A stretch of 64,000 nucleotides of DNA from Candidatus Parcubacteria bacterium (GTDB lineage: Bacteria; Patescibacteriota; Minisyncoccia; Phycocordibacterales; UBA918), in NCBI GenBank assembly GCA_021731405.1, contig JAKFXN010000005.1, positions 105,892-169,891 on the forward strand, given 5' to 3'. Below the pieces are notes generated by a model. The model worked only from the letters and a program-made list of their open reading frames with translations, had not been told where the DNA came from and did not search any database. Both the position numbers and the translations under genes were made by a program. Of the stretch, positions 11,528 through 54,132 are shown in pieces. Position 1 is the first letter of the stretch. Each line of letters begins with the position of its first letter.

Positions 11528-11582
11528 CATGTTGTAAGTATAGCAAAACAAGCATTCTCTAATCTTCACTGTACACAGACAA

Positions 11583-11650: not shown

Positions 11651-12799
11651 CTAGAATACTGGCGTTGCTACGTATGTCAGCGTAGCTGTGTAATCGCTGC
11701 CCGCTTCTTGTAGCGGACCTACTTCAACGGTATATCCTACACGTGTGATACCGACTCCTTGCGTTGTCGAATCAGCTGGTCCATCGTGTCGGAAGATTTC
11801 TACTGGTGTAGTAGAAGCAGATACATACATTCGTCCGCCGCCCCCTACATCAAAGTAGTTATCGAGGTCAGGATAAATGGTATCGTCGTTTGTTGTGATT
11901 CCCCAGTGTCCATAGGTATCTTCGTCACCTAGGGCAGATGTTGGACTCTCATAAAACAACGGTGTGTCTGTATATGCTCCATTACTATAACCATCGATAT
12001 CAGCACCTGTGGCTGATGTGAGTTGTTGGTCAGCATGTACTGTAACGACAAAGCCGTTAGCTGCGTTGGTACTTACTTCTAAGTCCTGCGCAGCGGTGAC
12101 TGCTGTATCAGCTTCTAGAACTCCAAAAGGAATTTCAGTAGAAGTTGTTGTACCGCTCGTTGTGTCTCCGTTGATTGCAGCTCCCGCATTTACACCTGTA
12201 ACAGTGAAATCGAAAATTGTTTCAACAGAGGCAGTAACTGTAACAACGTCAACAATTGCTACTCGCGTCGCACCAGTATCACTACTTCCAACAGTAAGCG
12301 TAATTTCGTACGAGTTTACAGCAGGGTTAGTGATTTGGTTTGAACCAGCTCCACCAGTAGTGGCGTTGGTACCAATTTCAATGGTGACAGTAGCATTTGC
12401 TCCGATAGTACTTGTGCCACTTTCAATGTCAATGACATCTCCAGCGGCAGTAACGTTCCAGTCCGCCCCACTGGCAACACCGTCGATAAGACTTTGCTCA
12501 ACGCCGTTGACGTTTAGGTCAACATCGGCAGCAACGATGGTTCCAACATCTGTAAAGACGCCAGTACCGAAGTTGATTGAGATTGTCTCACCAGCAGCGA
12601 GGCCAGTTGGTGTAACGAAGGATAGTGTGTGGTTGGATACTACCCCAGGTGCAGAATCTGAGAGTGTGTTACTAAATGAGATGACATTTGCAGCTTCCGC
12701 TCGGAATAAAGGTACACCTACGAACCATAAAATGATTGCGAGGGTAACAACTGCGGTGATTGCTTGGAGCAACGTGAACGTTGTATTCGTTCTAATCAT
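11651..12799 (-). CDS. Secreted Thr/Gly-rich beta-sandwich surface protein with a possible distant WxL-like C-terminus. Paralog of 53041-54132.
   Basis: Signal anchor then AEA|ANVISFSNTLSDSAPGVVSNHTLSF. The C-terminal region contains YGHWGITTND and ends TLTYVATPVF, alongside WGHWGLTSDD...TLMYIATPTF in the paralog. Confidence 0.55.
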   Translation of the reverse strand: MIRTNTTFTLLQAITAVVTLAIILWFVGVPLFRAEAANVISFSNTLSDSAPGVVSNHTLSFVTPTGLAAGETISINFGTGVFTDVGTIVAADVDLNVNGVEQSLIDGVASGADWNVTAAGDVIDIESGTSTIGANATVTIEIGTNATTGGAGSNQITNPAVNSYEITLTVGSSDTGATRVAIVDVVTVTASVETIFDFTVTGVNAGAAINGDTTSGTTTSTEIPFGVLEADTAVTAAQDLEVSTNAANGFVVTVHADQQLTSATGADIDGYSNGAYTDTPLFYESPTSALGDEDTYGHWGITTNDDTIYPDLDNYFDVGGGGRMYVSASTTPVEIFRHDGPADSTTQGVGITRVGYTVEVGPLQEAGSDYTATLTYVATPVF

Positions 12800-13366: not shown

Positions 13367-14497
13367 TTATCCGCTCCAATTAAACAGCAAAATAGAAAAG
13401 TCCTCAATACTCACCCTCCCGTTACCATTTATATCCGCAGGAGGATTAGAGTTTCCTCCGTCTGTCTGCCACCAGAAAATCAAAATAGAAAAGTCGATTA
13501 GGTTTACTCGTCCGTCACGATTGAGATCTGAAGGAGTAGTTACCTGTCCATCAACGCCAACAAAAAGTTGTAGGGTGGAACTAAAACTACTTTGTGTAGT
13601 CAATTGTCCGGTCCCCGTAACCGAACGAGCCCGAAGGGTATGCGGAGCAACTGAGAGTGAGGCGGTGTTTAAAGTAAGACTCCAATTTCCCTCCGCGTTT
13701 GCCGTGGTGCGTTCTATAGTTGAGCCTGTATCTATATGTACTTCTATTCCTGCGCTAGGAATAGATTGTCCACTTACAGTCACTATGTCTCCCGGGTTTA
13801 CGTTTTGGTTTGGAACACGAATAGTCGGCGGCAAAATAACACCAGCAATATTTGTAACCGCACCCTGCGTCACATCAAAGGTAGTGTTGAGAGTAATTGA
13901 GCGAGTCCCTGCAACGTCTGTGGCCCAAAAGCCAAGTGAGGCGGTGCCTGGTGAAGCGTCGGTAGTAAAATCAAATCTTCCTGCCCCATTGGCGCGTACA
14001 CTACCGACTGTTTCTGAGTCAAGAATTATATTGATAGTACGGCCAGGGTAGGCGAGGCCCGTGACACTTATGATAGTATCTCCCAGTTCAGTGGTACTTC
14101 CTCCGCTACCACCACTTCCTCCTCCCGAGCTTCCTCCTCCTCCCGAACCAGCTGGTTCAACCTGACAAATTGCTGAACAAAAGTCTCCATTGTCATTATT
14201 ACCATCATCACATTCTTCAGAGAATTGTGTCTGTAAAATTCCGTCCCCGCAATACGGACCAAAATTACAAATAGTGCTGCACTGTCGTCCAACTATAGTT
14301 GTACTATACACACCAGTCTCACCTGGAGCATCACACTGCTCACCATCGTCTACAAGTGCATTACCGCAGATACTTAAACTAAGGGTGGTTGATGCTGTAC
14401 CTGCAAAAAAAGTTTGTGCGAAAGCGACCTCCCCTTGGAGTAGTAGGAGTACAAGGCAAGAAAGTAAATAGAAAGTAAATCTCATAAGTCTATCCAA
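13367..14497 (-). CDS. Secreted dockerin-bearing protein: N-terminal Cys-rich repeats of the Myxococcus-type CGDG...CDDGN...C pattern, a Gly-rich linker, two Ig-like domains and a C-terminal type-I dockerin.
   Basis: YCGDGILQTQFSEECDDGNNDNGDFCSAIC repeat. C-terminus DLNRDGRVNLIDFSILIFWW...DINGNGRVSIEDFSILLFNWSG (two dockerin segments). The C-terminal half is paralogous to that of 45148-47058. It overlaps the upstream gene by 8 nt. Confidence 0.7.
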   Translation of the reverse strand: MDRLMRFTFYLLSCLVLLLLQGEVAFAQTFFAGTASTTLSLSICGNALVDDGEQCDAPGETGVYSTTIVGRQCSTICNFGPYCGDGILQTQFSEECDDGNNDNGDFCSAICQVEPAGSGGGGSSGGGSGGSGGSTTELGDTIISVTGLAYPGRTINIILDSETVGSVRANGAGRFDFTTDASPGTASLGFWATDVAGTRSITLNTTFDVTQGAVTNIAGVILPPTIRVPNQNVNPGDIVTVSGQSIPSAGIEVHIDTGSTIERTTANAEGNWSLTLNTASLSVAPHTLRARSVTGTGQLTTQSSFSSTLQLFVGVDGQVTTPSDLNRDGRVNLIDFSILIFWWQTDGGNSNPPADINGNGRVSIEDFSILLFNWSG

Positions 14498-15455
14498 CCT
14501 GTCGGCGAGAAAGACGTCTGTTGTAAATGAAATACAGAACGAGGATCAAAAGTGCAAAGATTGGCAGCAAGATTGAGATCTTATGCGGGACCGAGAGTCC
14601 ACTAAAGCCAAAGCCTGCTTGTTGTAGTGTGCCGTACGGAAGAATACTGAGACTAACTTCCCCTTCTTGCTTAACTTCATCGCCATTATAAATACTGTAC
14701 CGCGCAATATAGTTTCCGGCTGGAAGACGAGTTGGAATCTCAGCCAGTACTTCTTCAGTTGCGTAAGGAGCAATCTCAGTTATACGTCCCTTATGATCTG
14801 TTTCTTCAAGGAGAACATTTCCAGCGAAGTCAAAGATTCTAAATGCAACACGTGAAGGTGAAATATCTACGTTACCAGTGTTTTCGATTAACATAGTGAA
14901 ATTAATCTTTCCAGGGAAATACAACCAACCAAGTTTCTTTCCTTCATTCAAATCAGAAAGTCCAATTTTACGTACTCGAAAATCTTTTATTTCTCTATCA
15001 ATAACAGTGAGACCTATATCAACCTGCGCACCAAGTGAAATACTCACCGCACCAGCAGCTACTTGATCATCATCAGGTACAGTCTTGATTCTAATGACAC
15101 CTTTATAGTCTTTGAATTCAGCGTCATCAGGAACCGTTACTCGGACAGTCATTGGTACTTTCTGTACGCCTCGTGGCAATGGCACAGACTCTCCTTCTAC
15201 AATCTGGATCCAGTCCATGATTTCGGGAGCGTCCACGCTAATTTGGGCCTTCTGGGGCACATCAGGATTACCGCGCACCAACAAAATCTGTTGTTCGTAA
15301 GTGGAGTTTCGAGTCAGGCTCGTATTGCGTACATATGGTGGCGTAATACCAAAACCCGCTCGCACTATCTCAGTTGAGAGCACAAAAAAAAGCAGGCAGA
15401 TGGAAATAACCTTCTTCATATAAACAATATCGAGTACATCTCTTGCACTCTCCAA
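14490..15455 (-). CDS. DUF916-like cell-surface protein with an N-terminal signal, Ig-like ectodomain and a C-terminal TM plus basic tail (ends ...LVLYFIYNRRLSRRQVG).
   Basis: N-terminal GFGITPPYVRN...ILLVRGNPDVPQKAQISVD resembles the start of DUF916 proteins from lactobacillus/enterococcus WxL loci, recalled from memory. The C-terminus has LPYGTL then a hydrophobic stretch and an RR tail. Paralog of 51829-52974. Confidence 0.5.
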   Translation of the reverse strand: MESARDVLDIVYMKKVISICLLFFVLSTEIVRAGFGITPPYVRNTSLTRNSTYEQQILLVRGNPDVPQKAQISVDAPEIMDWIQIVEGESVPLPRGVQKVPMTVRVTVPDDAEFKDYKGVIRIKTVPDDDQVAAGAVSISLGAQVDIGLTVIDREIKDFRVRKIGLSDLNEGKKLGWLYFPGKINFTMLIENTGNVDISPSRVAFRIFDFAGNVLLEETDHKGRITEIAPYATEEVLAEIPTRLPAGNYIARYSIYNGDEVKQEGEVSLSILPYGTLQQAGFGFSGLSVPHKISILLPIFALLILVLYFIYNRRLSRRQVG

Positions 15456-15542: not shown

Positions 15543-17405
15543 CTACCAGTCTGTACTACTTGAGGTCACGGCGTAGAAGGTGTTTAGCCCTGTGTAGGCA
15601 CCAGCTACAGTAATCGCGATCGGTACTTCAATTCCCCAGTACGTTACACCTGAGTTAGGTGATGAGGTGGCTGTGGTCTTTGGTACTTTGAGCTCGAGGA
15701 GCTGTTGTGTTGTAGAAGAAAGATTGTATCCACTTCCGTACGCAACAGAACTTGTTCCGAACTCTTGTTGGTAATCTGGAATAGTTGAAGAAGCACTGTT
15801 TGCACATGGACTTCCCACCGCAAATCCTGGACACATCGCCTCACCTTCAAGTTCTTGGTTGAGCCCGGTGTTACCTACCGAGAGAACAGTTGTCGTTGCG
15901 TCGAGCGTTCCGGTGTTGTCTCCTGGTTCGAGTGATCCATATGGAATTTCTCCTGTAATCAAGTCAATGGCTGGGAAACTAAGGAGAGTCACTGGACTTG
16001 AGCCAACTGTTCTTGTTCCAGTAGCGTTGTTGTCATCGATACCAGCAATTGCTGCTACCCAATCATCGGCAGCAAATGGAGAGATAACGTCTGTTGGTTC
16101 AGCAACGAACCAGAGTGGGAATGTGCAAGACCAAAGTTGAGTTGGGTCTGATGGTCCACCACAACTAGTGGTAGATGCTGTACATGAGAGGTTCCAGACG
16201 TTGCTTGGGGCTCCACTTGGATAACAGTTGTTTGGATTGTATGAGCCGGCAAGACCAGAACAAGTTGATGTTCCAATACTACTTCGGTAAAGAGAGACTA
16301 CATATCCGACCATCTCGTCACCTCCAAGAGCATTTTCGCAACTGTTGGCATCGGAAGTTTCAAAGGCGAGTGGGAAGTTTAGAGTTTCTCCCGCTTCTAC
16401 CGTGAGTGAGATGTTTAATCCTCCGTTGACTGAGATACTTCCCGCAGCCACTGTTGGCGCTACGTTGCTTACCACAAAGCCATCATTTTCACCTTGAGAT
16501 CCACCTACTGCTGTGTGTCCATGGTTGTCTACAATGAAGCCGTAAGCATCAAAAGTATCATCTTGGATAACGCTTGGAAGAGTGAATGCCGCTGTAGCGT
16601 TTGCAGTTACTGGAACAGTAGTGGTAGCGATAGTTCCGCCGATACCACAACTTGCTGTTGTTGTACTGTAGTCGTTTGCATTACAGACATGCAGTGTAAG
16701 CACGTCTTCTCCACCAACAACGTCAGGGTCAGTTGAAGTTGAGAAGAAGGTTACAACGGCTCCAGGGTTAGCTGGTGAGTTGTTGTAGAAAGATGTAAAG
16801 CTTGGTCTGAAGTTTACATGGAAAGGAGAAGAGTTAGTTGCATTAGTACCTTGAGAACTTACGTCATTACAACGTGGGTTCACAGGATCGTCGTCACATA
16901 CCCAACCATACCAGTTGTTGCTTTCAGCAAACGGTGCGACTTCTGATGTTGTGGTTGCGACCCGGGCTTGCGCAAGAGCAGCTGTGGCGGTAGAGACTCC
17001 CCACTGCACTCCACCCACACACTCTGGCGGCTCAGTACCGAGCGTACCGAGACTGGCTGCAGCGTTTGGCGTCGGTGTAGCACTGCCACTACAGATAATC
17101 AAGAAATACGGCGCATTTCCAGAGTTGTCAGCCCGAGCTGTCCACGAGACTTGTCTTCCTGAGTTAGTCGGTGTGCTGGTTGAAGATTCAAACTCTTCTA
17201 CAGCAAAATCAATCCAAATCGGAGGAGTGTTGAGTACGGTCAGTGTCGTAGTTGCGGTCTGTGCTTCTACTTTTAGGAGCTCTGTTTTTCCTGCGTTAAA
17301 GAGGAACACGAAGGCAAAAATGAGCACTCCAGAAACAGCAGCCGCAATGGTGATTTTGCCTGCAGTTTCTAGGTAATTAAATTTCTCTACTTTGTTGTAC
17401 AACAT
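15543..17405 (-). CDS. Secreted 620-aa protein with an N-terminal signal anchor. It is a paralog of the C-terminal ~500 aa of the giant protein, including the shared YWGI(E/A)VP C-terminal domain.
   Basis: C-terminus SGVTYWGIEVPIAITVAGAYTGLNTFYAVTSSSTDW against the giant protein's TDVYWGIAVPFTASNAAHTGTNIFTAIGID. The upstream 100 aa also align (IPYGSLEPGDNTGTLDATTTVLSVGNTGLNQELEG against INYGALSGDSDTGSFNPTTTITNLGNTPINVDVEG). Confidence 0.65.
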   Translation of the reverse strand: MLYNKVEKFNYLETAGKITIAAAVSGVLIFAFVFLFNAGKTELLKVEAQTATTTLTVLNTPPIWIDFAVEEFESSTSTPTNSGRQVSWTARADNSGNAPYFLIICSGSATPTPNAAASLGTLGTEPPECVGGVQWGVSTATAALAQARVATTTSEVAPFAESNNWYGWVCDDDPVNPRCNDVSSQGTNATNSSPFHVNFRPSFTSFYNNSPANPGAVVTFFSTSTDPDVVGGEDVLTLHVCNANDYSTTTASCGIGGTIATTTVPVTANATAAFTLPSVIQDDTFDAYGFIVDNHGHTAVGGSQGENDGFVVSNVAPTVAAGSISVNGGLNISLTVEAGETLNFPLAFETSDANSCENALGGDEMVGYVVSLYRSSIGTSTCSGLAGSYNPNNCYPSGAPSNVWNLSCTASTTSCGGPSDPTQLWSCTFPLWFVAEPTDVISPFAADDWVAAIAGIDDNNATGTRTVGSSPVTLLSFPAIDLITGEIPYGSLEPGDNTGTLDATTTVLSVGNTGLNQELEGEAMCPGFAVGSPCANSASSTIPDYQQEFGTSSVAYGSGYNLSSTTQQLLELKVPKTTATSSPNSGVTYWGIEVPIAITVAGAYTGLNTFYAVTSSSTDW

Positions 17406-18719: not shown

Positions 18720-18797
18720 TAAATGAAATAATGAGCGTAGCGATTATATTGAATTTAGTTCCTAATTTTCTCCATTACTAGAGAAAATTACTGGAAC
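18719..18797. ncRNA. Conserved structured intergenic element, copy A (hairpin-motif family), lying between the ABC ATPase stop and the FtsX start codon.
   Basis: TTAAATGAAATAATGAGCGTAGCGATTATATTGAATTTAGTTCC-TAATTTTCTC-cattacta-GAGAAAATTA-CTGGAAC. The outer stem GTTCC/GGAAC and the 10-bp inner stem are shared with copy B, and the inner stem shows compensatory changes between copies. Confidence 0.5.
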
Positions 18798-18865
18798 GAC
18801 CCAACGCCCCTATTAAATGTAATTGTAACACTTCAAACTCTCAAAGAAACAAGTTTCCCCCGTAA

Positions 18866-42785: not shown

Positions 42786-44360
42786 TTACTTCAGAATTGC
42801 CTTTACATCATTGATTTCCTTTTCAATCAAGGTCTCTGAAACTTCGAGTGCTTGATTGAGTCCTTCCACTGCTTCTCGCTCACTTTTTGACAATCGCTTT
42901 CGTTTAGTAATCATGTTTACTTGGTCATAGATTTCATCTCGCAGTGCTGAGAAAATTTTCTCCATTTGATCTTGAACCTCACGTGTTTCTCGACGCAACT
43001 TCTCTTCTTTTATCTTAAGTTGTTTTCTTTCATACCAGATAAATATTGCCATCAAAAGGATAATAACAAAGAGGAAGAAGATGAGTAGGTTGCCGGGAGT
43101 CAAGAACGACCAGAAAGATTCTTCTTCAAGCACCTCAGCTGGTTTTATCCAGCCAGCCGTGATGAGTACCGCCTTGTTACTCTCTCGAATATTTCCAGCC
43201 TTGTCATGTGCAACTACTTTTACCGTGTAGGTGCCATCTTCAAGTTCACCAAGCAAATATCCGAGCAGTGCTTCATCTGGAGTTACTCTAAATGGCTCCT
43301 TGTCTGCAATCGTAAGCTCATAGAAGTCTATGCCTGAAATTTTATCTATCGCTTCAAATACAAGGAGTGGGAATGACGACGGTGTACTGCCAGTTCGTAC
43401 GCCAATTTCAAATGGTTCTGGAGGAATGGTATCAATCTGAAGTTTTCGATTGAGCGTTACTCCCCAACCAACTTGGTTCTTAAATCTAATACTAAGATAC
43501 TGTACTCCATCGACAATGATGTCTTTTGTGATTCTGAATTCATCTACTGGCGGTTCGAGTACTGAATCGGGATTGAGACTCGGATCGTTTTCACTTGAAG
43601 TTGCCATTTCTATTGCAACTGCATTTACGTCAAATGGTAGTGTCCAAGTAAATAGTCCTTCAGTAGTGTTGTACCACACTTCAGGGTCAAGGAAGGCTGG
43701 TGAGCCAACTTCTGGAGCACGTGGCGGATCTCCGAAAATAAGCGCTTCTTCACTATCATCTTCTTCATCGGGCTCTGGCGTATTTGGGGTAGGTGTTGGT
43801 GTCGGAGTTGGGGTAGGTGTTGGTGTCGGAGTCACAGCAGCTCCAATGGTAAAGTTGCTTGGGGAGGAAGTCTGATATACGTCGGTGCCGCGACCGTCTG
43901 CCGCTAGTACTGAAGCAGCACTAAAGCTAACAGCGGCTGTTCCTGCTTTTAATGTTCGAAACGTTACATTGATAAGGTTCGAGGTTGCAGAAAATGGGGC
44001 TGGGCTACCACCTCCGAAGCTTACGGTACCGGCTGTATTAGAAAAGGTTGGCTCTACAGTCCAAAGTGAGAAGGCGGAACCATCTTTTGTGATACTCACA
44101 ACTGAGAGAAGTGTTGGGTCAAACTTGAGAGTAGCCTCAACTGCATTAATGTTTTGACCGGCAGGTAGCACGCGTACCGCAGCGGTAAATGTCTGCCCTC
44201 CAGTATAAGAGCCCGTGCTTGGGTTCAATTGCAAAGTGGCAGCACTCGCAGTAAGTGCGCTCAAGAAAAATAGTACACTTACCGCAAGCAGACACAGAAG
44301 CTTTACAGCCACTTGTTCAACTTTATTATGTAAATGAATGTGTAACATACGTGATTTCAA
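42786..44360 (-). CDS. Anchoring-scaffoldin-like protein: signal, cohesin-like domain, (TP)n linker, Ig-like domains, a C-terminal TM and a coiled-coil cytoplasmic tail. Paralog of 8762-10489.
   Basis: ATLQLNPSTGSYTGGQTFTAAVRVLPAGQNINAVEATLKFDPTLLSVVSITKDGSAFSLWTVEPTFSNTAGTVSFGGGSP then TPTPTPTPTPTPTPNTPEP. TM LIFFLFVIILLMAIFIWY. Tail ...KRKRLSKSEREAVEGLNQALEVSETLIEKEINDVKAILK is conserved with the tail of 8762-10489. Confidence 0.65.
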   Translation of the reverse strand: MKSRMLHIHLHNKVEQVAVKLLCLLAVSVLFFLSALTASAATLQLNPSTGSYTGGQTFTAAVRVLPAGQNINAVEATLKFDPTLLSVVSITKDGSAFSLWTVEPTFSNTAGTVSFGGGSPAPFSATSNLINVTFRTLKAGTAAVSFSAASVLAADGRGTDVYQTSSPSNFTIGAAVTPTPTPTPTPTPTPTPNTPEPDEEDDSEEALIFGDPPRAPEVGSPAFLDPEVWYNTTEGLFTWTLPFDVNAVAIEMATSSENDPSLNPDSVLEPPVDEFRITKDIIVDGVQYLSIRFKNQVGWGVTLNRKLQIDTIPPEPFEIGVRTGSTPSSFPLLVFEAIDKISGIDFYELTIADKEPFRVTPDEALLGYLLGELEDGTYTVKVVAHDKAGNIRESNKAVLITAGWIKPAEVLEEESFWSFLTPGNLLIFFLFVIILLMAIFIWYERKQLKIKEEKLRRETREVQDQMEKIFSALRDEIYDQVNMITKRKRLSKSEREAVEGLNQALEVSETLIEKEINDVKAILK

Positions 44361-44988: not shown

Positions 44989-45162
44989 CCAAATGAGTAA
45001 AGAAGCATAGTGAAGTCTATATCTTTATCCAGTCCAGTTTAAATGAGTAGACGAGCGTAGCGACTACTACGAATTTAGTTCCCGATTTGTCCTCCTAAGG
45101 CAAATCGCTGGAACTCGAAGTAAAGAAGCATAGTGAAGTCTATATCTTTATCCTGTCCAGTT
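44987..45162. repeat. Two direct repeats of about 44 bp flanking element B: R1 at 44987-45039 and R2 at 45120-45162. R2 includes the last four codons and the stop of the dockerin gene 45148-47058.
   Basis: GTAAAGAAGCATAGTGAAGTCTATATCTTTATCC(A/T)GTCCAGTT occurs twice, about 133 bp apart, with the hairpin element in between. Confidence 0.6.
45043..45118. ncRNA. Conserved structured intergenic element, copy B (same family as 18719-18797).
   Basis: TTAAATGAGTAGACGAGCGTAGCGACTACTACGAATTTAGTTCC-CGATTTGTCC-tcctaa-GGCAAATCG-CTGGAAC. The inner stem sequence differs from copy A but complementarity is preserved. Confidence 0.5.
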
Positions 45163-47058
45163 AAACAGCAATATAGAGAAGTCAGTTAAGTTAACCTTGC
45201 TGTCACTATTAATGTCAGCTGACGGATCAGAATTACCGCCATCGGAATTCCACCAGAAAAGTAGAATTGAGAAGTCAGTTAAGTTAACCTTGCTGTCACG
45301 GTTCAAGTCGGCATTAATAGGGCGCGCAGCTGATTGTCCCACACCGTAAAACGTAAAGTTTGAAAAGTTTGTTGAGGCACCAGAGGCCTGTACTGCCCGT
45401 GCGCGCGTTTTATAAGTACCAACAGAGAAGCCGCTGGTGTTTATTGTTGTTGACCATTGCCCGTTTCCGTCAGAAGTAACGGTTAGACTTTGCTTTGAAG
45501 CGGCTGACCCTTCCTTTTCATTTTCTATAGTTATTGTTGCGTCTGGTAGTGCATACCCGCTTAGAGTGAGTGTACTTCCTGGAGTAACAGGGTCAGGAGA
45601 AACTTTAATAGTTGGGGCAAGGTTGATGTTTGAAAGCGCTGAAGTTCGAGCACCAATAACCGTAAATGAGGTACTAAAGGTAGATGAGCGCACTTGCGCA
45701 GTATCGACCGCATACACACCAAAGGTATACGCACCGCGCGCTATCTCATCAACAGTAATTGAATACACTCCCTGATTATCTGCACGTTCACTTGTTACCG
45801 CCTTCCCATCAACAAGTGCAAAGACCTCACTTCGCGGAAAAGCGTAACCAGAAATAATTACCCGAGCATCTCCACTTCGATACGGTCCATCGGTACTTTC
45901 AAATCCTCCGCCAGCGGTGTTACCTGAACCTCCACCCGAACCACCACCGCCGCCGCCACCCGAGCCACCCGAACCAGAGGATCCACCTTGAGCAGGTGCA
46001 ACTCCGTCAGAGCTTCCTGTCTCCCCTCCGGAACCTCCTCCGTCTCCGGTACCATTATTACCCGTACCGGTACCATCACCATCTACTTCTCCTTCGGTAT
46101 TGGATTCACCGGTTGGAACAGCACTAACGGCAAATTCGATTAAGTAATCATCGATGTTAAAGTTTCCTTCATCGTCAATACAGCGGACATAAAATTGTTG
46201 AATCGTATCTGGAAGAACTGAGACTACAACCGTGTGAAAAATAAGGCCCGTACCTGTAAAGGTGTTCGGCATTGAGGCATAACTTTGTCCTGGTGTAAGA
46301 CTATACTTGCAAACTGCCAACTCATCAGTCTGAAGGAAAAGTTCGACACTCAAAGTAACACCGGTTACCGTACTACTCGGCGCACCATTAAAGCGATCAG
46401 GCGGAATCTCTTCTGTCGTATCGATTGGTCCAACACCAACACGGTTTACCAGCGAGATAGAAAAACTTGCATCTGCTACCAGTCCGCCATCATACACTTC
46501 GAGGCGTACTTTTTTAGTACCCGTAGTTGAGGCGTTTATTACTGGTTCTTCATCGCCAATTATTGTAGTAGTACCAGTTGTGGTGGCAAACGTTTCACTA
46601 AACTCAAGAGATTTTGAAGTATGGTTTCCAATCTTCAATACCAACTCAGAACCAGAAGTGATTCCGGTCACGGGGTTAAGTGTGTACTTAATTGAACCAG
46701 GTGAACCGGGAAATATTTCAACCATATCCACCCCTGGAGCAAGAGTGCTGTCAGAGCTTCTTAAAGATCCATCTACCAACAATTCAACATTTCGCTCAGC
46801 TGCAAACGTACTAGTACTTAGGACTTCAAAACCAGCAGGAAGCGTGACTTCAAAGTACCCTCCCGGAGAAACATTAGTGCCAATCTTAAACGAAAGGGTG
46901 TGATTAGAAGCTCGTAGTGGCGCCGAATCAGAGATAGTGTCTTTATATTCATTGATATTGCGAGCGAACAAGATATCTGGAAAAAACAGAAACAACGTCA
47001 GCATCAGAATACCAACCGCTGCCAGTAAAAACGCCCAGGCTTTAACCACTAAAGTCAT
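45148..47058 (-). CDS. Secreted dockerin-bearing protein: signal peptide, an N-terminal beta-sandwich shared with the WxL-like proteins, a Gly-rich linker, Ig-like domains and a C-terminal type-I dockerin.
   Basis: The track start at 47211 would overlap the upstream ABC gene by 86 nt. The internal Met MTLVVKAWAFLLAAVGILMLTLFLFFPDILFA (about 47058) is a better signal peptide. N-terminal motif SDSAPLRASNHTLSF. C-terminus DLNRDSKVNLTDFSILLFWW...DINSDSKVNLTDFSILLFNWTG. Confidence 0.7.
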   Translation of the reverse strand: MTLVVKAWAFLLAAVGILMLTLFLFFPDILFARNINEYKDTISDSAPLRASNHTLSFKIGTNVSPGGYFEVTLPAGFEVLSTSTFAAERNVELLVDGSLRSSDSTLAPGVDMVEIFPGSPGSIKYTLNPVTGITSGSELVLKIGNHTSKSLEFSETFATTTGTTTIIGDEEPVINASTTGTKKVRLEVYDGGLVADASFSISLVNRVGVGPIDTTEEIPPDRFNGAPSSTVTGVTLSVELFLQTDELAVCKYSLTPGQSYASMPNTFTGTGLIFHTVVVSVLPDTIQQFYVRCIDDEGNFNIDDYLIEFAVSAVPTGESNTEGEVDGDGTGTGNNGTGDGGGSGGETGSSDGVAPAQGGSSGSGGSGGGGGGGSGGGSGNTAGGGFESTDGPYRSGDARVIISGYAFPRSEVFALVDGKAVTSERADNQGVYSITVDEIARGAYTFGVYAVDTAQVRSSTFSTSFTVIGARTSALSNINLAPTIKVSPDPVTPGSTLTLSGYALPDATITIENEKEGSAASKQSLTVTSDGNGQWSTTINTSGFSVGTYKTRARAVQASGASTNFSNFTFYGVGQSAARPINADLNRDSKVNLTDFSILLFWWNSDGGNSDPSADINSDSKVNLTDFSILLFNWTG

Positions 47059-50594: not shown

Positions 50595-51410
50595 TTAGAG
50601 AATATCCCGTACGCAGCGAAAGCCCACACCAACCGCAGAGAAGTTGAGCGGTACTGCTATATTTTGTGAAAAGATTCCGCCATCTTCCCCACTCCCGTAG
50701 AACCCGCCACGAATAATTCCCTGTACTCCCGTGCTGTTTACCCAGGCATAATCTTCCCCAAAACGAGCGTCTGGCTCAGTATGAGTAGTCAGTACTACTC
50801 CATCGCTATCAACGAGCGTTATATACCCAGACTCTGGGAGACTTCTGTCTTTGTACGTACCGTCTGTTACCGTGTCGTCCATCCACTCCCAGACATTACC
50901 AACCACATCATGGACACCAGTATTGGTTACACAATTTGCAGTTCCGGTAAGTTCTAATGTTTGACTCAAAAAACAAGCGTCTAGTTCAGTCTGCCCTAAG
51001 GCGACTTTGTACCATTCTTCGTTGGTCGGCAAGCGCTTACCCGCCCGAGCACACAACTGTTGAGCTTCGGTATAGGTCACATATTTCCAAGGATCAAGGC
51101 TTGGAGCAGAATGTGCACGGCAAGCCTCAGCCCCAATATTTACTTGTGTATCTACTTCACTTTTGATTTGTTCATACGGACACGAAGTATGTGGACTCGC
51201 TTCATAGACATCCATGCAGACACTGTGAGAGCCAAACAATATAGGTACTTCGTGTAGGCCACATACGCCCTGTGACTCCAAGACGAGCCCCGAAAGCCGA
51301 CCACTAACTCCAGCCAGTTCGTCACTCGCTTGTATCCCTAATGTAGAAATAATAAGAGCCCCGACTCCAACCAAAATCGACTTAGGCAGCGCTTTCATTT
51401 CTCTGAACAT
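50595..51410 (-). CDS. Secreted FGE/SUMF1-family domain protein, paralog 3 of 3.
   Basis: ...DYAWVNSTGVQGIIRGGFYGS...GFRCVRDIL. Tandem with the other two copies. Confidence 0.7.
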   Translation of the reverse strand: MFREMKALPKSILVGVGALIISTLGIQASDELAGVSGRLSGLVLESQGVCGLHEVPILFGSHSVCMDVYEASPHTSCPYEQIKSEVDTQVNIGAEACRAHSAPSLDPWKYVTYTEAQQLCARAGKRLPTNEEWYKVALGQTELDACFLSQTLELTGTANCVTNTGVHDVVGNVWEWMDDTVTDGTYKDRSLPESGYITLVDSDGVVLTTHTEPDARFGEDYAWVNSTGVQGIIRGGFYGSGEDGGIFSQNIAVPLNFSAVGVGFRCVRDIL

Positions 51411-51810
51411 ATATTTCTTTTACCTCTTTTCTCCGTGCACGCATAAAATCTAGAATATAGTTGAGTACAATGAGTGTTAGTAAAATAAAAAGAATGACGC
51501 TCAATATAAAAGTTGAGGTATCAAACGGTGCGGTCGATTGAGTATTCCCGACCGAGACAGCGATGAGTCTTTCTTTTGCCTCAAGCTCTGTCTCGAGTTC
51601 AGTAATGCGACCTGTCAGTTGATTGAGTTCATTTGGCGCCACTCCGACAGTCACCCCAACTACGTTTGCAAGATGTTGCTCAGTTGTATTTGAAAGTAGC
51701 ACGGTCTCTTCAAACAAAAGTCCACTATCAAACACCAGGGCAATCGCCAAAACACTCACCGTTACACGCAGAAAGCTATGGTAGAGGCTATGTTCAAGCG
51801 AATTTCTCAT
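51382..51810 (-). CDS. Small bitopic membrane protein with an N-terminal TM, a coiled coil, a C-terminal TM and a basic stretch.
   Basis: 142 aa. TM segments VTVSVLAIALVF and FILSVILFILLTLIVLNYIL followed by RARRKE. It overlaps the upstream FGE gene by 29 nt. It occupies the position of the small cell-surface protein in Csc-type clusters. Confidence 0.45.
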   Translation of the reverse strand: MRNSLEHSLYHSFLRVTVSVLAIALVFDSGLLFEETVLLSNTTEQHLANVVGVTVGVAPNELNQLTGRITELETELEAKERLIAVSVGNTQSTAPFDTSTFILSVILFILLTLIVLNYILDFMRARRKEVKEIYVQRNESAA

Positions 51811-51828
51811 ATACCTTATAGTATATCA

Positions 51829-52935
51829 CTAAGCAAAAAGCAGGAGGAGTATGATAAAGAATAGAGCAGTTACCGCCAGCATTGAGATAAACACCAGCAA
51901 AACCGGAAATTGGTTTTGCTGTCTTGAGCGAACAAGCCTCCTAGTAACTCCAGAGCTCGCAACTGCCATACTACGTTTTACGTACACCTTGACGGTCACA
52001 TAAATAAGTAAGAAGAGAACGATAAGACCAATCAATGCAGGAGTAACAATATTCATTGGCAAGATCCAGAACGTTACCGTACTTGAAATAGTATTGATAC
52101 TTCCTTGTTCTCCATACACAACGCTTAAGAGTGCTTCATACCGCCCAAAGCCTGGACTCTCATCTGTCCAGTTGATGTCAAACTCACGAGTCCCTTCGGG
52201 GTTACTCGCTGTCTTCGGAAAAACACTGGCTTGGTTGTCATTAAACTTCAGCATTGCCACTTGCTTACCGAACATATTTTTTACTTCCAGTGGACCAATT
52301 GGCTTTATGAGTGTATTACCCTCATTTTCAATATGTACATTAAAATCAACATCAGTTGTTCCGTATATGTACTGTGACGTTGAAAATTGGCGGATACGGG
52401 CGGACTCATACGCATCACCAGCAATTCTAATACTAATGATATTTGCTACTTCATACCCAATACCTGCACCAGACGCACGGAGTTTTGGTGGTTCCGCCGA
52501 AATTATCAAGCTTCCGAAGTGACTTCCTGGACTGACTTCAAGCGGTACATTCATCACAAAGGTATATTCTTTTGTTTCCCCCGGTTGAAGCTGTATTTCC
52601 TCAGCTGAAAGGGTAAGCCAGTCACTAATTTCGTAGCCTGTTTTTTCTGAACTATCGGTTGAAAATATCGGGACTCCACCGTCTCGTACCCCAATAATGT
52701 CACGAATAGAAAGATAGAAAGTTTTCTCAACAGTATTGAGGTTAGATATCTCAACACTAAATTGAGCAGTAGCCCCAGGTTCAAATTGCTCTGCCGGCTC
52801 TATAATTGCGGGACTTATTCCAATACCGGCCGCGGCCTGGGCAAGCGCGAAAGAGCTTGACCCGGCGTAGAAAAATGAGAGTAAAAAGAGTGCTAATGCA
52901 AATAAAACTGGGCGTGAAAAAATGTGGGTATTCAT
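51829..52935 (-). CDS. DUF916-like cell-surface protein with a signal peptide, Ig-like ectodomain and C-terminal TM helices. Paralog of 14490-15455.
   Basis: After the signal: AAGIGISPAIIEPAEQFEPGATAQFSVEISNLNTVEKTFYLSIRD, which resembles the (F/I)xVxP...PGxxQxLxVxLxNxT opening of DUF916 proteins. C-terminus WILPMNIVTPALIGLIVLFLLIYVTVKVYVKRS. Start may be 52974 or 52935. Confidence 0.5.
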   Translation of the reverse strand: MNTHIFSRPVLFALALFLLSFFYAGSSSFALAQAAAGIGISPAIIEPAEQFEPGATAQFSVEISNLNTVEKTFYLSIRDIIGVRDGGVPIFSTDSSEKTGYEISDWLTLSAEEIQLQPGETKEYTFVMNVPLEVSPGSHFGSLIISAEPPKLRASGAGIGYEVANIISIRIAGDAYESARIRQFSTSQYIYGTTDVDFNVHIENEGNTLIKPIGPLEVKNMFGKQVAMLKFNDNQASVFPKTASNPEGTREFDINWTDESPGFGRYEALLSVVYGEQGSINTISSTVTFWILPMNIVTPALIGLIVLFLLIYVTVKVYVKRSMAVASSGVTRRLVRSRQQNQFPVLLVFISMLAVTALFFIILLLLFA

Positions 52936-52990
52936 ATATAAGTGTCGCCTTATAGTAACACTCCTAAAACGCAAGTTTGTAAATTTATAA

Positions 52991-53026
52991 ACACAAAAAG
53001 AACCGCCGAAGCGGTTCTTTTTGTGT
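52991..53026 (-). terminator. Rho-independent terminator downstream of 53041-54132.
   Basis: AAAAAGAACCGC-CGAA-GCGGTTCTTTTT hairpin with flanking A/T runs. Confidence 0.75.
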
Positions 53027-53040
53027 ACATACTTTTATAG

Positions 53041-54132
53041 TTAGAAAGTAGGTGTAGCGATGTACATGAGAGTTGTCGTGTAGTCATCTCCCGCTTCCTG
53101 AAGTGGTGAAATCTGAACTCGGTATCCGATTGTAGCAGAACCGACATCCTGTGTTACACCATCAGCTGGGTCGTTGTGAGAGAAAATAATACGTGGAGTA
53201 GTACTTGCCGCGACCCATTTATCCCCGCCACCTGAGGTGAATTCAGAACCGTTAAGGTTTGAGTCATCAGAGGTAAGACCCCAGTGCCCCCAAGTGTTTT
53301 CAAGCAAGAGAGAGTTTGTAGGTGCAGACCACGCAGTAGGGGTGTTGGTATAAGCACCATTGATGAAAGCATCAATATCGGCACCTGTACTGGATAGCAA
53401 GTTCTGATCCTGTTGTACTGTTACAACGAATCCGTTTGCAGCGTTTGTTTCTACCGTAAGCTCTTGAGCTAGGGTATACACATCACCAGCATCTAGAATT
53501 CCGAATGGAATTTCTGTAGCTGTTGAGGCGCCACTTGTTGTTGTGGCATTAACTGTTGTTGAAGTAGCTGTCCCTGCAACAACGAAGTCGAAGGTTGTTT
53601 CTACCACAGCAGTCACTGTTACATAATCAACGATAGCTACTCGTGTACGTCCTGTGTCTGTCGTAGCATTCGCAATTGAAATTGTGAATTCGTATGACAT
53701 CACTGGTGCAGGATTTCCTACAATGCCAGGTGCCAACACTACAGTCACAACATCTGTTGATGTTGCCGCAACGTTATCAAAGGTAAGTGTTTGTGCGCCT
53801 GCTGCGAAGTTACCGATTGTAATCGGAGCTCCACCGTTCAGTCGTACCGTCAGGTCACCTGAGACAACTGTGTTTACATCTGTGAACCCTGACGGGAAAG
53901 TAATTACGTAATCACTAGTTGAGGCTACAGATGAACCAAGCGGAATTTCAAAACTGAAATTGTGCCCTGAGAGCGCACTTGGACCTGAGTCTGTTAAAGT
54001 ATTGCTAATCTCAATAAGGTTAGCTGCTTGTGCGGTTGTGTAGACTCCGACTGACCAGAGAACTACTGCACACGCAACGAGCATCGCGACTACCCGGTGC
54101 GTAAAGCCAACGTGTGTTGGTATTACGAACAT
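53041..54132 (-). CDS. Secreted Thr/Gly-rich surface protein, possibly WxL-like. Paralog of 11651-12799.
   Basis: Signal anchor then AQA|ANLIEISNTLTDSGPSALSGHNFSF. C-terminal ...NTWGHWGLTSDDSNLNG...TTTLMYIATPTF. Adjacent to the DUF916-like and small membrane protein genes. Confidence 0.55.
   Translation of the reverse strand: MFVIPTHVGFTHRVVAMLVACAVVLWSVGVYTTAQAANLIEISNTLTDSGPSALSGHNFSFEIPLGSSVASTSDYVITFPSGFTDVNTVVSGDLTVRLNGGAPITIGNFAAGAQTLTFDNVAATSTDVVTVVLAPGIVGNPAPVMSYEFTISIANATTDTGRTRVAIVDYVTVTAVVETTFDFVVAGTATSTTVNATTTSGASTATEIPFGILDAGDVYTLAQELTVETNAANGFVVTVQQDQNLLSSTGADIDAFINGAYTNTPTAWSAPTNSLLLENTWGHWGLTSDDSNLNGSEFTSGGGDKWVAASTTPRIIFSHNDPADGVTQDVGSATIGYRVQISPLQEAGDDYTTTLMYIATPTF

What the first reader, a model, noticed from the sequence alone, without database searches (positions are those of the whole stretch)
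51382..54132. Csc/WxL-type surface-protein cluster with a second set at 11651-12799 and 14490-15455
Three adjacent minus-strand genes encode (i) a secreted Thr/Gly-rich protein ending ...WGHWGL...TLMYIATPTF, (ii) a DUF916-like protein with a C-terminal TM, and (iii) a small bitopic membrane protein. This mirrors the WxL protein / DUF916 protein / small surface protein arrangement of cell-surface-complex loci in lactobacilli and enterococci. A second WxL-like/DUF916-like pair lies elsewhere in the window. The WxL-like proteins share their N-terminal domain (SDSAP..SNHTLSF) with dockerin protein 45148-47058, linking the two surface systems. If the homology holds, this extends WxL-type non-covalent peptidoglycan-binding systems to a new lineage.
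Basis: inference. Interest (0 to 1): 0.65.

Follow-up and report, generated by a model that had tools for sequence, protein, structure and literature searches.

The report
Pam-like pilus operons with WxLIP-type chaperones
Two conserved gene clusters in this ultra-small (Paceibacteria/CPR) bacterium most likely build a recently discovered kind of thin pilus, and their assembly chaperone proves to be a true relative of the WxL-interacting protein of enterococci and lactobacilli, which ties together two surface systems that were described separately.

Summary
The middle protein (51829-52974) is a genuine DUF916/WxLIP relative. It passes Pfam's cut-off, its closest solved structure is E. faecium WxLIP bound to a long WxL protein (9i25), and its profile aligns with authentic WxLIPs across both domains. 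The "WxL-like" proteins (53041-54132, 11651-12799) are not detectable WxL proteins: 0 of 143 relatives hit Pfam WxL, and "WGHWGL" is not conserved. They repeatedly match NCBIfam CPR_Pam_pilin_C, below its cut-off. They share the Pam pilin plan: signal peptide, beta-sandwich, highly conserved linker strand, C-terminal domain. Pam pili were described in a June 2026 preprint. In 79 reference-genome loci the pilin always sits beside a chaperone-type gene. Two conserved operon types exist, each with dockerin and membrane-anchored cohesin proteins, and a terminator hairpin follows each pilin gene. Best reading: a Paceibacteria variant of the Pam donor-strand pilus with a WxLIP-family membrane-anchored chaperone. 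Whether the pilin C-terminal domain and the WxL domain are homologous remains open: three motifs match in order, but profile comparison is not significant and the fold libraries needed were unavailable.

The parts
53041..54132 (-). Pilin I: signal peptide (about 1-37, cleavage after AQA), N-terminal beta-sandwich (about 38-158), conserved linker/donor strand (159-180, RVAIVDYVTVTAVVET), C-terminal domain (181-363) ending ATPTF
   Evidence: ORF. AF2 model pLDDT 83. NF058581 CPR_Pam_pilin_C E 2.9e-6, and 40/47 plus 66/96 relatives match. Linker and C-terminal domain most conserved.
52991..53026 (-). Terminator-type hairpin (16-bp stem, A-rich arm / GC core / U-rich arm) directly after the pilin I stop codon
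   Evidence: A comparable hairpin follows the pilin gene in 47/49 type I, 16/16 type II and 11/11 unclassified loci (mean dG about -22 against about -10 for shuffles).
51829..52974 (-). WxLIP-family (DUF916 + DUF3324-like) two-domain protein with C-terminal membrane anchor (two hydrophobic segments). Proposed pilin chaperone. Likely true start is the ATG at 52935.
   Evidence: PF06030 above cut-off. PDB EfmWxLIP1 E 5.5e-5. Foldseek top hits 9i25_C and 9i1y, then RbmA and chaperone-usher chaperones. hhalign against authentic WxLIPs 92.2% over 232 columns. Lies within 600 bp downstream of the pilin in 47 loci.
51382..51810 (-). Small membrane protein with two hydrophobic segments flanking a coiled-coil-like ~65-aa segment. 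Conserved accessory gene of unknown role.
   Evidence: Present after the chaperone gene in 45/47 type I loci. No family match.
45148..47058 (-). Dockerin protein carrying a pilin-type N-terminal domain plus the first half of the linker strand, then Ig-like domains and a C-terminal dockerin. It has no pilin C-terminal (acceptor) domain. Proposed pilus-base adaptor/terminator.
   Evidence: A3 profile E 1.9e-15, profile positions 16-177. Dockerin_1 26 bits > 22.9. Same arrangement in 18 orthologues, which conserve [FM]x[IV]A[IV][IV]DxVxV. Dockerin-type gene within 6 kb in 30/36 type I loci.
42786..44360 (-). Membrane-anchored cohesin protein (C-terminal TM 415-446). Proposed docking site for the dockerin protein.
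   Evidence: Cohesin 34.4 bits > 24.1. TM segment. Conserved synteny.
11651..12799 (-). Pilin II, a paralogue of pilin I. Identity by region: linker 82%, C-terminal domain 56%, N-terminal domain 37%.
   Evidence: NF058581 E 3.4e-5.
14490..15455 (-). Second chaperone-type protein (A4 family): signal peptide, beta-rich ectodomain, one C-terminal TM. Distant paralogue of 51829-52974.
   Evidence: hhalign A2 against A4 94.5%, E 8.3e-8. Lies 0.9-2.2 kb upstream of pilin II in 17 loci. No PF06030 hit of its own. hhalign against WxLIPs only 8.4%.
13367..14497 (-). Cys-rich (DUF4215) / Big_6 / dockerin protein between the A4 chaperone gene and pilin II
   Evidence: Pfam. Present in 17/17 type II loci.
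10493..11569 (-). Cohesin-related membrane-anchored protein immediately downstream of pilin II
   Evidence: Homologous to the cohesin protein 42786-44360 by phmmer. TM 312-339. Present in 15/16 type II loci. Not itself called by Pfam Cohesin.
8762..10489 (-). Second membrane-anchored cohesin protein of the type II cluster
   Evidence: Cohesin 31.7 bits > 24.1 and Big_13. TM 461-500. Conserved about 1.1 kb downstream of pilin II.
15543..17405 (-). 620-aa secreted Cys-rich protein, the first gene of the type II array. Its C-terminal ~250 aa is homologous to the C-terminus of the 6,967-aa giant protein.
   Evidence: Present in 17/17 type II loci. Not related to the pilin C-terminal domain.

Best explanation
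The window, from a Paceibacteria (Parcubacteria, CPR) genome, carries two conserved operons for a Pam-type pilus. This is the chaperone-assisted, usher-less, donor-strand filament recently solved in the saccharibacterium Ca. Mycosynbacter amalyticus.

Proposed mechanism:
1. Each pilin is exported by Sec and its signal peptide is removed.
2. Its C-terminal Ig-like domain lacks a strand. Until assembly, that domain is kept folded by a membrane-anchored two-domain chaperone (51829-52974 for pilin I, 14490-15455 for pilin II).
3. The conserved linker strand of the next pilin then replaces the chaperone strand, and the filament grows from its base.

The chaperone is a sequence- and structure-level member of the DUF916/DUF3324 'WxL-interacting protein' family of Firmicutes.

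The dockerin protein 45148-47058 has a pilin N-terminal domain and half a linker but no acceptor domain. It is proposed to join the pilus base and tie it, through dockerin-cohesin binding, to the membrane-anchored cohesin protein 42786-44360.

Shown here: the homologies, the architecture, the conservation pattern, the gene linkage and the post-pilin terminator. Inferred: polymerisation by donor-strand exchange, the chaperone role and the cohesin-dockerin anchoring.
For: Pilin identity:
- NF058581 CPR_Pam_pilin_C is the only significant family match. Pilin I scores E 2.9e-6 and pilin II 3.4e-5, and between them the two matches cover profile positions 2-148.
- 40/47 close relatives and 66/96 diverse relatives match it, best E 1.5e-10.
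- The AF2 model (pLDDT 83) shows a signal helix, an N-terminal sandwich, an unpaired linker and a C-terminal beta domain, as described for PamA/PamB.
- The linker and C-terminal domain are the most conserved parts (0.59-0.67 against 0.39 for the N-terminal domain). Between the two paralogues the linker is 82% identical. The preprint reports the same pattern.

Chaperone:
- PF06030 is passed above its cut-off, and 49/49 relatives match.
- The profile hits PDB EfmWxLIP1 at E 5.5e-5.
- Foldseek top hits are 9i25_C (E 7.5e-13) and 9i1y, followed by RbmA and the chaperone-usher chaperones CfaA, CsuC, Caf1M, DraB and SafB.
- hhalign gives 92% against authentic WxLIPs over both domains.
- PamC and PamD are described as PapD-like two-domain proteins with a C-terminal TM helix.
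- In WxLIP, a hairpin strand completes the WxL sandwich.

Linkage:
- 60/66 loci with both flanks have the chaperone-type gene in its canonical place. The other six have one within about 4 kb.
- Accessory genes are conserved: 45/47, 30/36, 17/17, 17/17 and 15/16.

Expression signature: a terminator hairpin follows the pilin stop codon in 74/76 loci.

No LPXTG and no conserved lysine occur in 96 relatives.
Against: - The Pam pilin model's curated cut-off (55 bits) is not reached. The window proteins score 27 and 24 bits, so they are remote relatives at best.
- No PamA/PamB structure was available for comparison. The full-length Foldseek search of the PDB gave only generic tandem-Ig hits.
- No tip pilin with a C-terminal domain only (PamT-like) and no clear PamR-like anchor was found in the window.
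- The window pilins lack the paired cysteines of PamA/PamB, although 67/86 relatives have two or more.
- The neighbourhood differs from the published pam operon: there are no ATP-synthase genes, and the system is split into two operons.
- RbmA, the fold assigned to the anchor PamR, is also a high-ranking hit of the chaperone-type model, so a role as anchor rather than chaperone is not excluded.
- No filament has been observed in this lineage.
Confidence: 0.62

Rival explanations
1. One reading: a WxL/WxLIP (Csc-type) non-covalent surface complex. The 'pilin' is a diverged WxL protein that does not polymerise. It is held 1:1 on the cell surface or peptidoglycan by the membrane-anchored WxLIP-type protein and displays its N-terminal domain.
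For: - The partner protein is a bona fide WxLIP-family member.
- The gene order, subunit then WxLIP, matches five authentic loci.
- Three motifs occur in the same order in WxL and in the pilin C-terminal domain: FG; G[WF]x[LV]xVxQ; and Y-x-TT-[LF]-T-[WY]-x-[LA]...P at the extreme C-terminus.
- The local hhalign score of the middle motif exceeds all 150 column-shuffled controls.
- In long relatives the pilin module is always C-terminal, as the WxL domain is in long WxL proteins.
Against: - Pfam WxL does not appear among the matches for the 47 close relatives at E<=1, or among the families displayed for the 96 diverse relatives. The same kind of test finds DUF916 in 49/49 partner proteins.
- hhalign probability is 0.65-1.5% against a nine-sequence WxL profile, while the control for the partner protein gives 92%.
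- The Trp and Leu of both WxL motifs are not conserved.
- There is no LPXTG protein or sortase.
- The conserved inter-domain linker strand, and its 82% identity between paralogues, has no counterpart in short WxL proteins and is what a donor strand predicts.
- The significant family match is to the Pam pilin.
Confidence: 0.2
2. A cohesin-dockerin surface scaffold in which the 'pilin-like' proteins are simply abundant monomeric surface or S-layer-type proteins. On this reading the DUF916-type proteins are adhesins or matrix anchors (RbmA-like) and not chaperones.
For: - Both clusters are embedded among cohesin and dockerin proteins.
- RbmA is the fourth-best structural match of the DUF916-type model.
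- BslA, a surface-layer hydrophobin, matches the N-terminal domain (TM 0.63; weak Pfam hits).
- The terminator after the gene indicates only high expression.
Against: - It does not explain the strongest conservation lying in an inter-domain linker strand.
- It does not explain the recurrent match to the Pam pilin C-terminal domain.
- It does not explain the one-to-one pairing of each pilin paralogue with its own chaperone-type paralogue.
- The two-domain chaperone-usher chaperones align better over the whole protein (TMt 0.50-0.54) than RbmA does (TMt 0.32-0.33).
Confidence: 0.12
3. A sortase-assembled Gram-positive-type pilus, as suggested by the top full-length structural hits to EbpB, BcpA and MSCRAMM adhesins.
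For: Foldseek PDB hits to EbpB, ClfA, SdrE and BcpA at E 1e-6 to 2e-4.
Against: - TM-scores are only 0.18-0.26 with rmsd above 18 A, which indicates generic tandem-Ig similarity.
- None of 96 relatives has an LPxTG signal or a C-terminal anchor. All end in [AC]TP[TVI][FY].
- No column has a conserved lysine. Pilin II has no lysine and pilin I has one.
- No sortase gene is present in either cluster.
Confidence: 0.01

Closest known systems
Pam pilus of Candidatus Mycosynbacter amalyticus (PamA/PamB pilins, PamC/PamD chaperones; Troman et al., bioRxiv 10.64898/2026.03.03.709456; NCBIfam NF058581)
   Same: - CPR-specific system.
- Sec signal peptide, N-terminal beta-sandwich, conserved linker strand and C-terminal Ig-like domain.
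- Significant but sub-threshold match to the Pam pilin C-terminal model.
- Two pilin paralogues.
- Partner proteins are two-domain, PapD-like and anchored by a C-terminal TM helix.
- No usher or other envelope-spanning machine.

   Different: - The lineage is Paceibacteria. [quoted passage not shown]
- Scores are far below the NCBIfam cut-off (27 against 55 bits).
- The genes form two separate operons about 41 kb apart, each with one pilin and one chaperone.
- No PamT-like tip, PamE or PamR was recognised, and there is no ATP-synthase neighbourhood.
- The window pilins have no cysteines.
- The type I chaperone has two C-terminal membrane segments.
- The operons are constantly associated with dockerin and cohesin proteins and with a small two-TM protein.

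WxL / WxLIP (Csc) surface clusters of Lactobacillales, Listeria and Bacillus (Siezen 2006 PMC1534035; Hassan 2023 PMC10599100; PDB 9i1y, 9i25)
   Same: - The partner protein is homologous to WxLIP over both domains and shares its membrane anchor.
- WxLIP is its closest solved structure.
- The subunit gene lies immediately upstream of the WxLIP-type gene.
- The subunit's conserved domain is C-terminal.
- There is a motif-level resemblance of the subunit's C-terminal domain to WxL.

   Different: - The subunit is not recognised by the WxL model or by a WxL profile, and the WxL tryptophans and leucines are not conserved.
- The subunit has an extra N-terminal domain and a conserved linker strand.
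- There is no LPXTG protein or sortase.
- The WxLIP N-terminal NQxxxxxYFDL motif is absent: it aligns with a gap.
- Pfam DUF3324 is not hit directly.

Chaperone-usher pili of Gram-negative bacteria (Pap/Fim, CFA/I, Csu, Caf1)
   Same: - The fold of the chaperone-type protein matches CfaA, CsuC, Caf1M, DraB, SafB and CupB2 at E 1e-9 to 2e-7 and TMt about 0.5.
- The proposed logic is the same: donor-strand complementation followed by donor-strand exchange.
- A major subunit gene is followed by a terminator.
   Different: - There is no usher and no outer membrane.
- The chaperone is membrane-anchored rather than soluble.
- The donor strand is an inter-domain linker rather than an N-terminal extension.
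- The pilin has two domains.
- No Pfam PapD_N or PapD_C match appears.

Membership tests
Pam pilin (NCBIfam NF058581 CPR_Pam_pilin_C) | HMM score at or above the curated cut-off (55 bits) | tested here: not met
   27.4 bits (E 2.9e-6) and 24 bits (E 3.4e-5). 40/47 and 66/96 relatives match at E<=0.01, best 1.5e-10. This is a remote homologue, not a member by the curated rule.
Pam pilin | Architecture: Sec signal peptide, N-terminal beta-sandwich, single linker strand, C-terminal Ig-like domain | tested here: met
   AF2 model pLDDT 83: helix 10-27, strands 40-166, unpaired 167-180, strands 181-361. Compared with the description.
Pam pilin | Linker (donor strand) and C-terminal domain are the most conserved regions | tested here: met
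   Top-residue frequency is 0.59 for the linker, 0.51-0.67 for the C-terminal domain and 0.39 for the N-terminal domain in 96 diverse relatives. Paralogues are 82%, 56% and 37% identical in linker, C-terminal domain and N-terminal domain.
Pam pilin | Polymerises by donor-strand exchange into a filament | not testable with these tools
   This needs multimer prediction or cryo-EM.
Pam operon | Adjacent membrane-anchored PapD-like two-domain chaperone | tested here: met
   Model with two sandwiches plus TM. Chaperone-usher chaperones among the top hits. Adjacency in 60/66 loci.
Pam operon | Tip pilin (PamT, C-terminal domain only) and RbmA-like anchor (PamR) | tested here: not met
   Pilin profiles A1 and A3 find a C-terminal domain only in the two pilins. 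No separate RbmA-like gene was recognised. The dockerin protein is proposed as a functional substitute by inference only.
WxL domain (Pfam PF13731) | Match to the WxL profile | tested here: not met
   None of 47 close relatives matches at E<=1, and WxL is not among the 25 families displayed for 96 diverse relatives. hhalign against nine authentic WxL proteins gives 0.65% full length and 1.5% domain-to-domain. The positive control for the method gives 92%.
WxL domain | Two conserved Trp-x-Leu motifs | tested here: not met
The positions that align with the true WxL motifs read G-F-x-V and T-Y-I-A.
WxL domain | Same fold as a solved WxL domain (9i25) | tested here: inconclusive
WxL domain | Non-covalent peptidoglycan binding | not testable with these tools
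   This needs a biochemical assay.
WxLIP (DUF916 + DUF3324 + TM helix) | PF06030 (WxLIP_PGBD/DUF916) at or above the gathering score | tested here: met
   29.6 bits against 27.3. 49/49 relatives match at E<=0.1, best 3e-9.
WxLIP | Second (DUF3324/HBD) domain and C-terminal TM helix | tested here: met
   hhalign against five authentic WxLIPs aligns 232 columns across both domains at 92.2%, E 5.8e-7. TM segments 287-322 and 341-368. Pfam DUF3324 itself is not hit.
WxLIP | Closest solved structure is a WxLIP | tested here: met
   9i25_C at E 7.5e-13 and 9i1y at E 4e-12 rank first. The sequence profile hits EfmWxLIP1 at E 5.5e-5.
WxLIP | Conserved N-terminal NQIDKxxxYFDLK motif | tested here: not met
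   This segment of the WxLIP profile aligns with a gap in the window family. The window family has AG-x-G-I-x-P instead.
Csc cluster (Siezen 2006) | CscA (DUF916) + CscB/CscC (WxL) + CscD (LPXTG) gene set | tested here: not met
   Only the CscA-type component is present. There is no WxL match, no LPXTG and no sortase. The third gene is a two-TM protein.

The most novel reading that the evidence does not exclude
The Pam-type pili of CPR bacteria and the WxL/WxLIP surface complexes of Firmicutes are two branches of one ancient chaperone-subunit (donor-strand complementation) system of bacteria without an outer membrane. On this reading:
- WxLIP is a membrane-anchored pilus-type chaperone.
- The WxL domain is a strand-deficient pilin-type domain homologous to the Pam pilin C-terminal domain.
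- In Paceibacteria the filament is tethered to the cell by a dockerin-cohesin pair in place of a PamR-type anchor.

Homology of the chaperone half is demonstrated here. The subunit half rests on shared gene order, three ordered motifs and the published observation that a WxLIP strand completes the WxL sandwich. No paper in the searched library links WxL to donor-strand pili, and the Pam preprint mentions neither WxL nor DUF916.
Probability: 0.35. Interest if true: 0.8.

Novelty: new variant of a known kind. Interest (0 to 1): 0.55.

Why it matters
- **Spread of the system.** Pam pili were described only in 2026 from one cultivated saccharibacterium. The family found here has 1,434 clusters at 50% identity. 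It lies below the NCBIfam cut-off, and its members carry no functional name in the sources searched. This suggests that such filaments are a widespread surface organelle of Paceibacteria, a large and uncultivated CPR class whose way of attaching to hosts is unknown.

- **A link between two research areas.** The demonstrated homology between the CPR chaperone-type protein and WxLIP connects a CPR pilus with a Firmicute surface and virulence system. It also offers a mechanistic reinterpretation of WxL clusters as chaperone/strand-complementation systems.

- **A new anchoring idea.** The constant association with dockerin and cohesin proteins suggests a way of anchoring a pilus that has not been described, and it can be tested.

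Tried and rejected
1. **Giant and 620-aa proteins as 'large pilins'.** I suspected that the 6,967-aa giant protein and the 620-aa protein carry a pilin-type C-terminal domain, as large WxL proteins carry a WxL domain. The two are homologous to each other (E 6e-18). But pilin profiles A1 and A3 do not detect them. hhalign with a 19-sequence profile gives 1.8%, matching only an IP[FY]G-L-PG motif. Rejected at the sequence level.

2. **Single-sequence and profile searches of PDB sequences with the pilin.** No hits.

3. **Full-length Foldseek of the pilin against the PDB.** Only generic tandem-Ig matches.

5. **hhalign against single authentic sequences.** It fails even for the known positive pair (0.2%), so those numbers are uninformative.

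6. **Rebuilding WxL sequences from the OCR of Siezen's supplementary alignment.** Too corrupted. It was useful only as a lead to plasmid-borne WxL loci.

7. **'Global' hhalign.** It did not produce a true global alignment.

8. **The search for related loci with the diverse alignment A3.** A1 was used instead.

9. **The look-up of encoding contigs for the window's own pilin.** Not on record.

10. **Sigma-70 promoter scan.** No more sites than in shuffled sequence, so no promoter is claimed.

11. **M. amalyticus PamC/PamD sequences.** They could not be obtained, so whether they themselves hit PF06030 is untested.

Full report
**Observation**

The second set is at 11651-12799 (382 aa) and 14490-15455 (321 aa).

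- The two 'WxL-like' proteins are clear paralogues: 46% identity, E 5e-91.
- Both are Thr- and Gly-rich (15-16% and 8.5-10.7%) and almost lysine-free.
- The two 'DUF916-like' proteins are only weakly similar pairwise (E 4e-4). Profiles built from about 50 orthologues of each align at 94.5% probability (E 8.3e-8) over 157 columns. The aligned region runs from a shared N-terminal AG-x-G-I-x-P strand into the second domain.
- The N-terminal domain shared with the dockerin protein 45148-47058 is real: E 3e-9 pairwise and E 1.9e-15 with a broad family profile.

Two small corrections. The 142-aa protein has two hydrophobic segments, so it is not bitopic. The 381-aa protein has two C-terminal membrane segments.

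**The middle gene is a WxLIP-family protein**

- 51829-52974 passes Pfam's curated cut-off for PF06030 (DUF916, now WxLIP_PGBD): 29.6 against 27.3 bits. All 49 sampled orthologues match it, best E 3e-9.
- The family profile finds exactly one kind of solved protein in the PDB, EfmWxLIP1, at E 5.5e-5.
- The AlphaFold model (pLDDT 82) has a signal helix, two beta-sandwiches and two C-terminal helices.
- Its best structural matches are 9i25_C, 'WxLIP from Enterococcus faecium locus A bound to long WxL' (E 7.5e-13), and 9i1y. RbmA and a long series of chaperone-usher chaperones follow: CfaA, CsuC, Caf1M, DraB, SafB and CupB2.
- I retrieved authentic WxL/WxLIP loci from plasmids of B. anthracis, B. 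pumilus, Listeria, E. innesii and E. gilvus.
- Against a profile of five authentic WxLIPs from these loci, the window family aligns over 232 columns spanning both the DUF916 and DUF3324 domains, at 92.2% probability and E 5.8e-7.

**The 'WxL-like' proteins are not detectable WxL proteins**

- Pfam WxL is absent from the hits at E<=1 of 47 close relatives, and from the families displayed for 96 diverse relatives. The same test design finds DUF916 in 49/49 partner proteins.
- Family profiles find no PDB sequence at all, including the WxL chain of 9i25.
- hhalign against nine authentic WxL proteins gives 0.65% at full length and 1.5% domain-to-domain.
The conserved residues are Gly, His and Gly, not Trp and Leu.

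There is still a real motif-level resemblance. Three landmarks occur in the same order in both families:
1. FG.
2. G-[WF]-x-[LV]-x-V-x-Q.
3. Y-x-T-T-[LF]-T-[WY]-x-[LA]...P at the extreme C-terminus.

**What the subunits are**

The only significant family match is NCBIfam NF058581, 'CPR_Pam_pilin_C, Pam pilus system pilin subunit'. Pilin I scores E 2.9e-6 and pilin II 3.4e-5. Both are below the 55-bit cut-off, and together the two matches cover profile positions 2-148. The match recurs in 40/47 close and 66/96 diverse relatives, best E 1.5e-10.

The Pam pilus was described in a June 2026 preprint (10.64898/2026.03.03.709456). According to that preprint:
- PamA and PamB of Ca. [quoted passage not shown]
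- That C-terminal domain accepts the linker of the neighbouring subunit.
- The linker and its groove are the most conserved parts.
- The chaperones PamC and PamD are PapD-like two-domain proteins anchored by a C-terminal TM helix.
- There is no usher.

The window proteins fit this plan.
- The AlphaFold model (pLDDT 83) shows helix 10-27, a sandwich at 40-166, an unpaired segment at 167-180 and a beta domain at 181-361.
- In 96 diverse relatives, the linker and C-terminal domain are clearly more conserved than the N-terminal domain (0.59-0.67 against 0.39).
- Between the two window paralogues, the linker is the best-conserved segment: 82% identity, against 56% for the C-terminal domain and 37% for the N-terminal domain. 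That would allow co-polymerisation, as reported for PamA and PamB.

**Family size and lineage**

An exhaustive profile search finds 1,434 clusters at 50% identity, of which 262 have E<=1e-30. Named relatives and 79 loci from species-representative genomes are labelled Paceibacteria, Paceibacterota, Kaiserbacteria, Nomurabacteria, Parcubacteria or generic Patescibacteria. The closest is a Ca. Paceibacteria MAG at 83% identity. [quoted passage not shown]

**Operon structure**

In the 79 loci there are two conserved arrays.
- Type I: DinB, pilin I, WxLIP-type gene about 100 bp downstream, small two-TM protein (45/47), optional FGE-sulfatase genes and ABC transporter, dockerin protein with the pilin N-terminal domain (30/36 within 6 kb), HSP20, membrane-anchored cohesin protein.
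- Type II: 620-aa Cys-rich protein (17/17), A4 chaperone-type gene, dockerin protein (17/17), pilin II, cohesin-related TM protein (15/16), second cohesin TM protein.

Of 66 loci with both flanks, 60 have the chaperone-type gene in its canonical position. The other six have one within about 4 kb. Several genomes carry both arrays about 37-40 kb apart, as the window does.

A terminator-type hairpin follows the pilin stop codon. In the window it lies at 52991-53026 and has a 16-bp stem. A comparable hairpin is present in 47/49 type I, 16/16 type II and 11/11 unclassified loci (mean dG about -22 against about -10 kcal/mol for shuffles). It is conserved in position but not in sequence. This is the usual signature of a highly expressed major structural subunit.

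**Cohesin-dockerin link**

Cohesin and dockerin domains pass Pfam cut-offs in 42786-44360, 8762-10489, 45148-47058, 13367-14497 and 7297-8052. The cohesin proteins have C-terminal TM anchors.

The type I dockerin protein carries the pilin N-terminal domain and the segment [FM]-x-[IV]-A-[IV]-[IV]-D-x-V-x-V. That segment corresponds to the last N-terminal strand plus the first half of the pilin linker, and it is conserved in 18 orthologues. The protein has no pilin C-terminal domain. A subunit that can donate a strand but cannot accept one is what a chain terminator or base adaptor would look like. Its dockerin could tie the filament to the membrane-anchored cohesin. This step is inference only.

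**Rivals**

- A sortase-type pilus is excluded. There is no LPxTG in 96 relatives, which all end in [AC]TP[TVI][FY]. There is no conserved lysine column, no lysine at all in pilin II and no sortase gene. The Gram-positive pilin hits have TM-scores of only 0.18-0.26.
- A generic cohesin-dockerin surface scaffold is possible at about 0.1. It does not explain the conserved linker or the paralogue-specific pairing.

**Comparison with what is known, and novelty**

The system works like a Pam pilus and is a remote homologue of it. It fails the curated membership cut-off and differs in operon organisation, accessory genes, cysteine content and lineage.

Its chaperone is a member of the WxLIP family. 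DUF916-only proteins in two CPR genomes, TM7x and a Kazan bacterium, already appear uninterpreted in a 2023 supplementary table. The Pam preprint mentions neither WxL nor DUF916. No paper in the library links WxL to donor-strand assembly, although Hassan et al. describe a WxLIP strand completing the WxL sandwich.

I therefore rate this a new variant of a known kind. The more novel possibility, not excluded and at about 0.35, is that Pam pili and WxL clusters are branches of one ancient chaperone-subunit system.

Noticed in passing
window 21769-42672 (-) and 15543-17405 (-): A 6,967-aa secreted giant protein lies between the two pilus operons. Its last ~230 aa are homologous (30% identity, E 6e-18) to the C-terminus of the 620-aa first gene of the type II operon. 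This shared Cys-rich domain ends YWGI-VP...TG-N-F-A. It has no family match and no detectable relation to the pilin C-terminal domain.
   Followed up: yes
window 48919-49722, 49761-50579, 50595-51410 (-): Three tandem paralogous membrane-anchored FGE-sulfatase (SUMF1-like) domain proteins sit between the small two-TM gene and the ABC transporter. FGE-type genes occupy this position in many type I loci but not all; they are absent in Parcubacteria OLB19, for example.
   Followed up: partly
window 53041-54132 and 11651-12799; alignment A3: The pilins are almost lysine-free (1 and 0 Lys, against 5-8% in housekeeping neighbours). Across 86 single-module relatives the median is 3 Lys per mature protein, and no column has a conserved Lys. 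The window pilins have no Cys, whereas 67/86 relatives have two or more, often including a C-terminal CTPT[YF].
   Followed up: yes
proteins P0277, P0282, P0313, P0314, P0318, P0321, P0380, P0382: Some family members are 457-1,022 aa long, with the whole pilin module at the extreme C-terminus. Among the 96 aligned relatives, a few also match LVIVD repeats, Laminin_G_3, Flg_new or a 'TafC family fimbrial protein' (E 4e-11), presumably in such N-terminal extensions. These may be adhesin-bearing pilins, which would parallel the 'long WxL' architecture.
   Followed up: partly
Hassan et al. 2023 (PMC10599100), Table S5: DUF916-only proteins with no WxL partner are listed for Ca. Nanosynbacter lyticus TM7x (TM7x_00820, 329 aa, E 5.9e-11) and candidate division Kazan GW2011_GWA1_50_15 (476 aa, E 5.2e-14). 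These may be Pam-type chaperones in the class where Pam pili were found. Their neighbourhoods were not checked.
   Followed up: no
window 44374-44838 (-): An HSP20/alpha-crystallin gene is conserved between the dockerin-protein gene and the cohesin-protein gene in many type I loci. This is an odd, constant cytoplasmic-chaperone neighbour of a surface system.
   Followed up: partly
L082 (B. anthracis pXO1, 72080-82427): The pXO1 WxL + DUF916/DUF3324 pair lies about 1.5 kb downstream of Flp/Tad pilus assembly genes (CpaB, AAA ATPase, CpaF/VirB11). In the E. innesii and E. gilvus plasmid loci, the WxL clusters sit next to a class A sortase gene, and the E. innesii locus also has an LPXTG protein.
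   Followed up: no
window 7297-8052 (-): A 251-aa protein has a C-terminal dockerin (Pfam 24.4 bits). Its N-terminal region looks cohesin-like by eye (…IRLEPSQTAVMEGERFSIDIYAS…) but is not called by Pfam. It may be a cohesin-dockerin adaptor.
   Followed up: no
window 17511-20188 (-) and 20249-21748 (-): A MacB/FtsX-type permease and an ABC ATPase with a long C-terminal extension, followed by a secreted protein with multiple FN3 domains, lie between the type II operon and the giant gene.
   Followed up: no
window 12800-13366: A 567-bp gap without a credible ORF lies between the type II dockerin gene and pilin II. It contains a terminator-like hairpin (13310-13342, minus strand) overlapping a promoter-like site. 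It is probably the pilin II regulatory region.
   Followed up: partly
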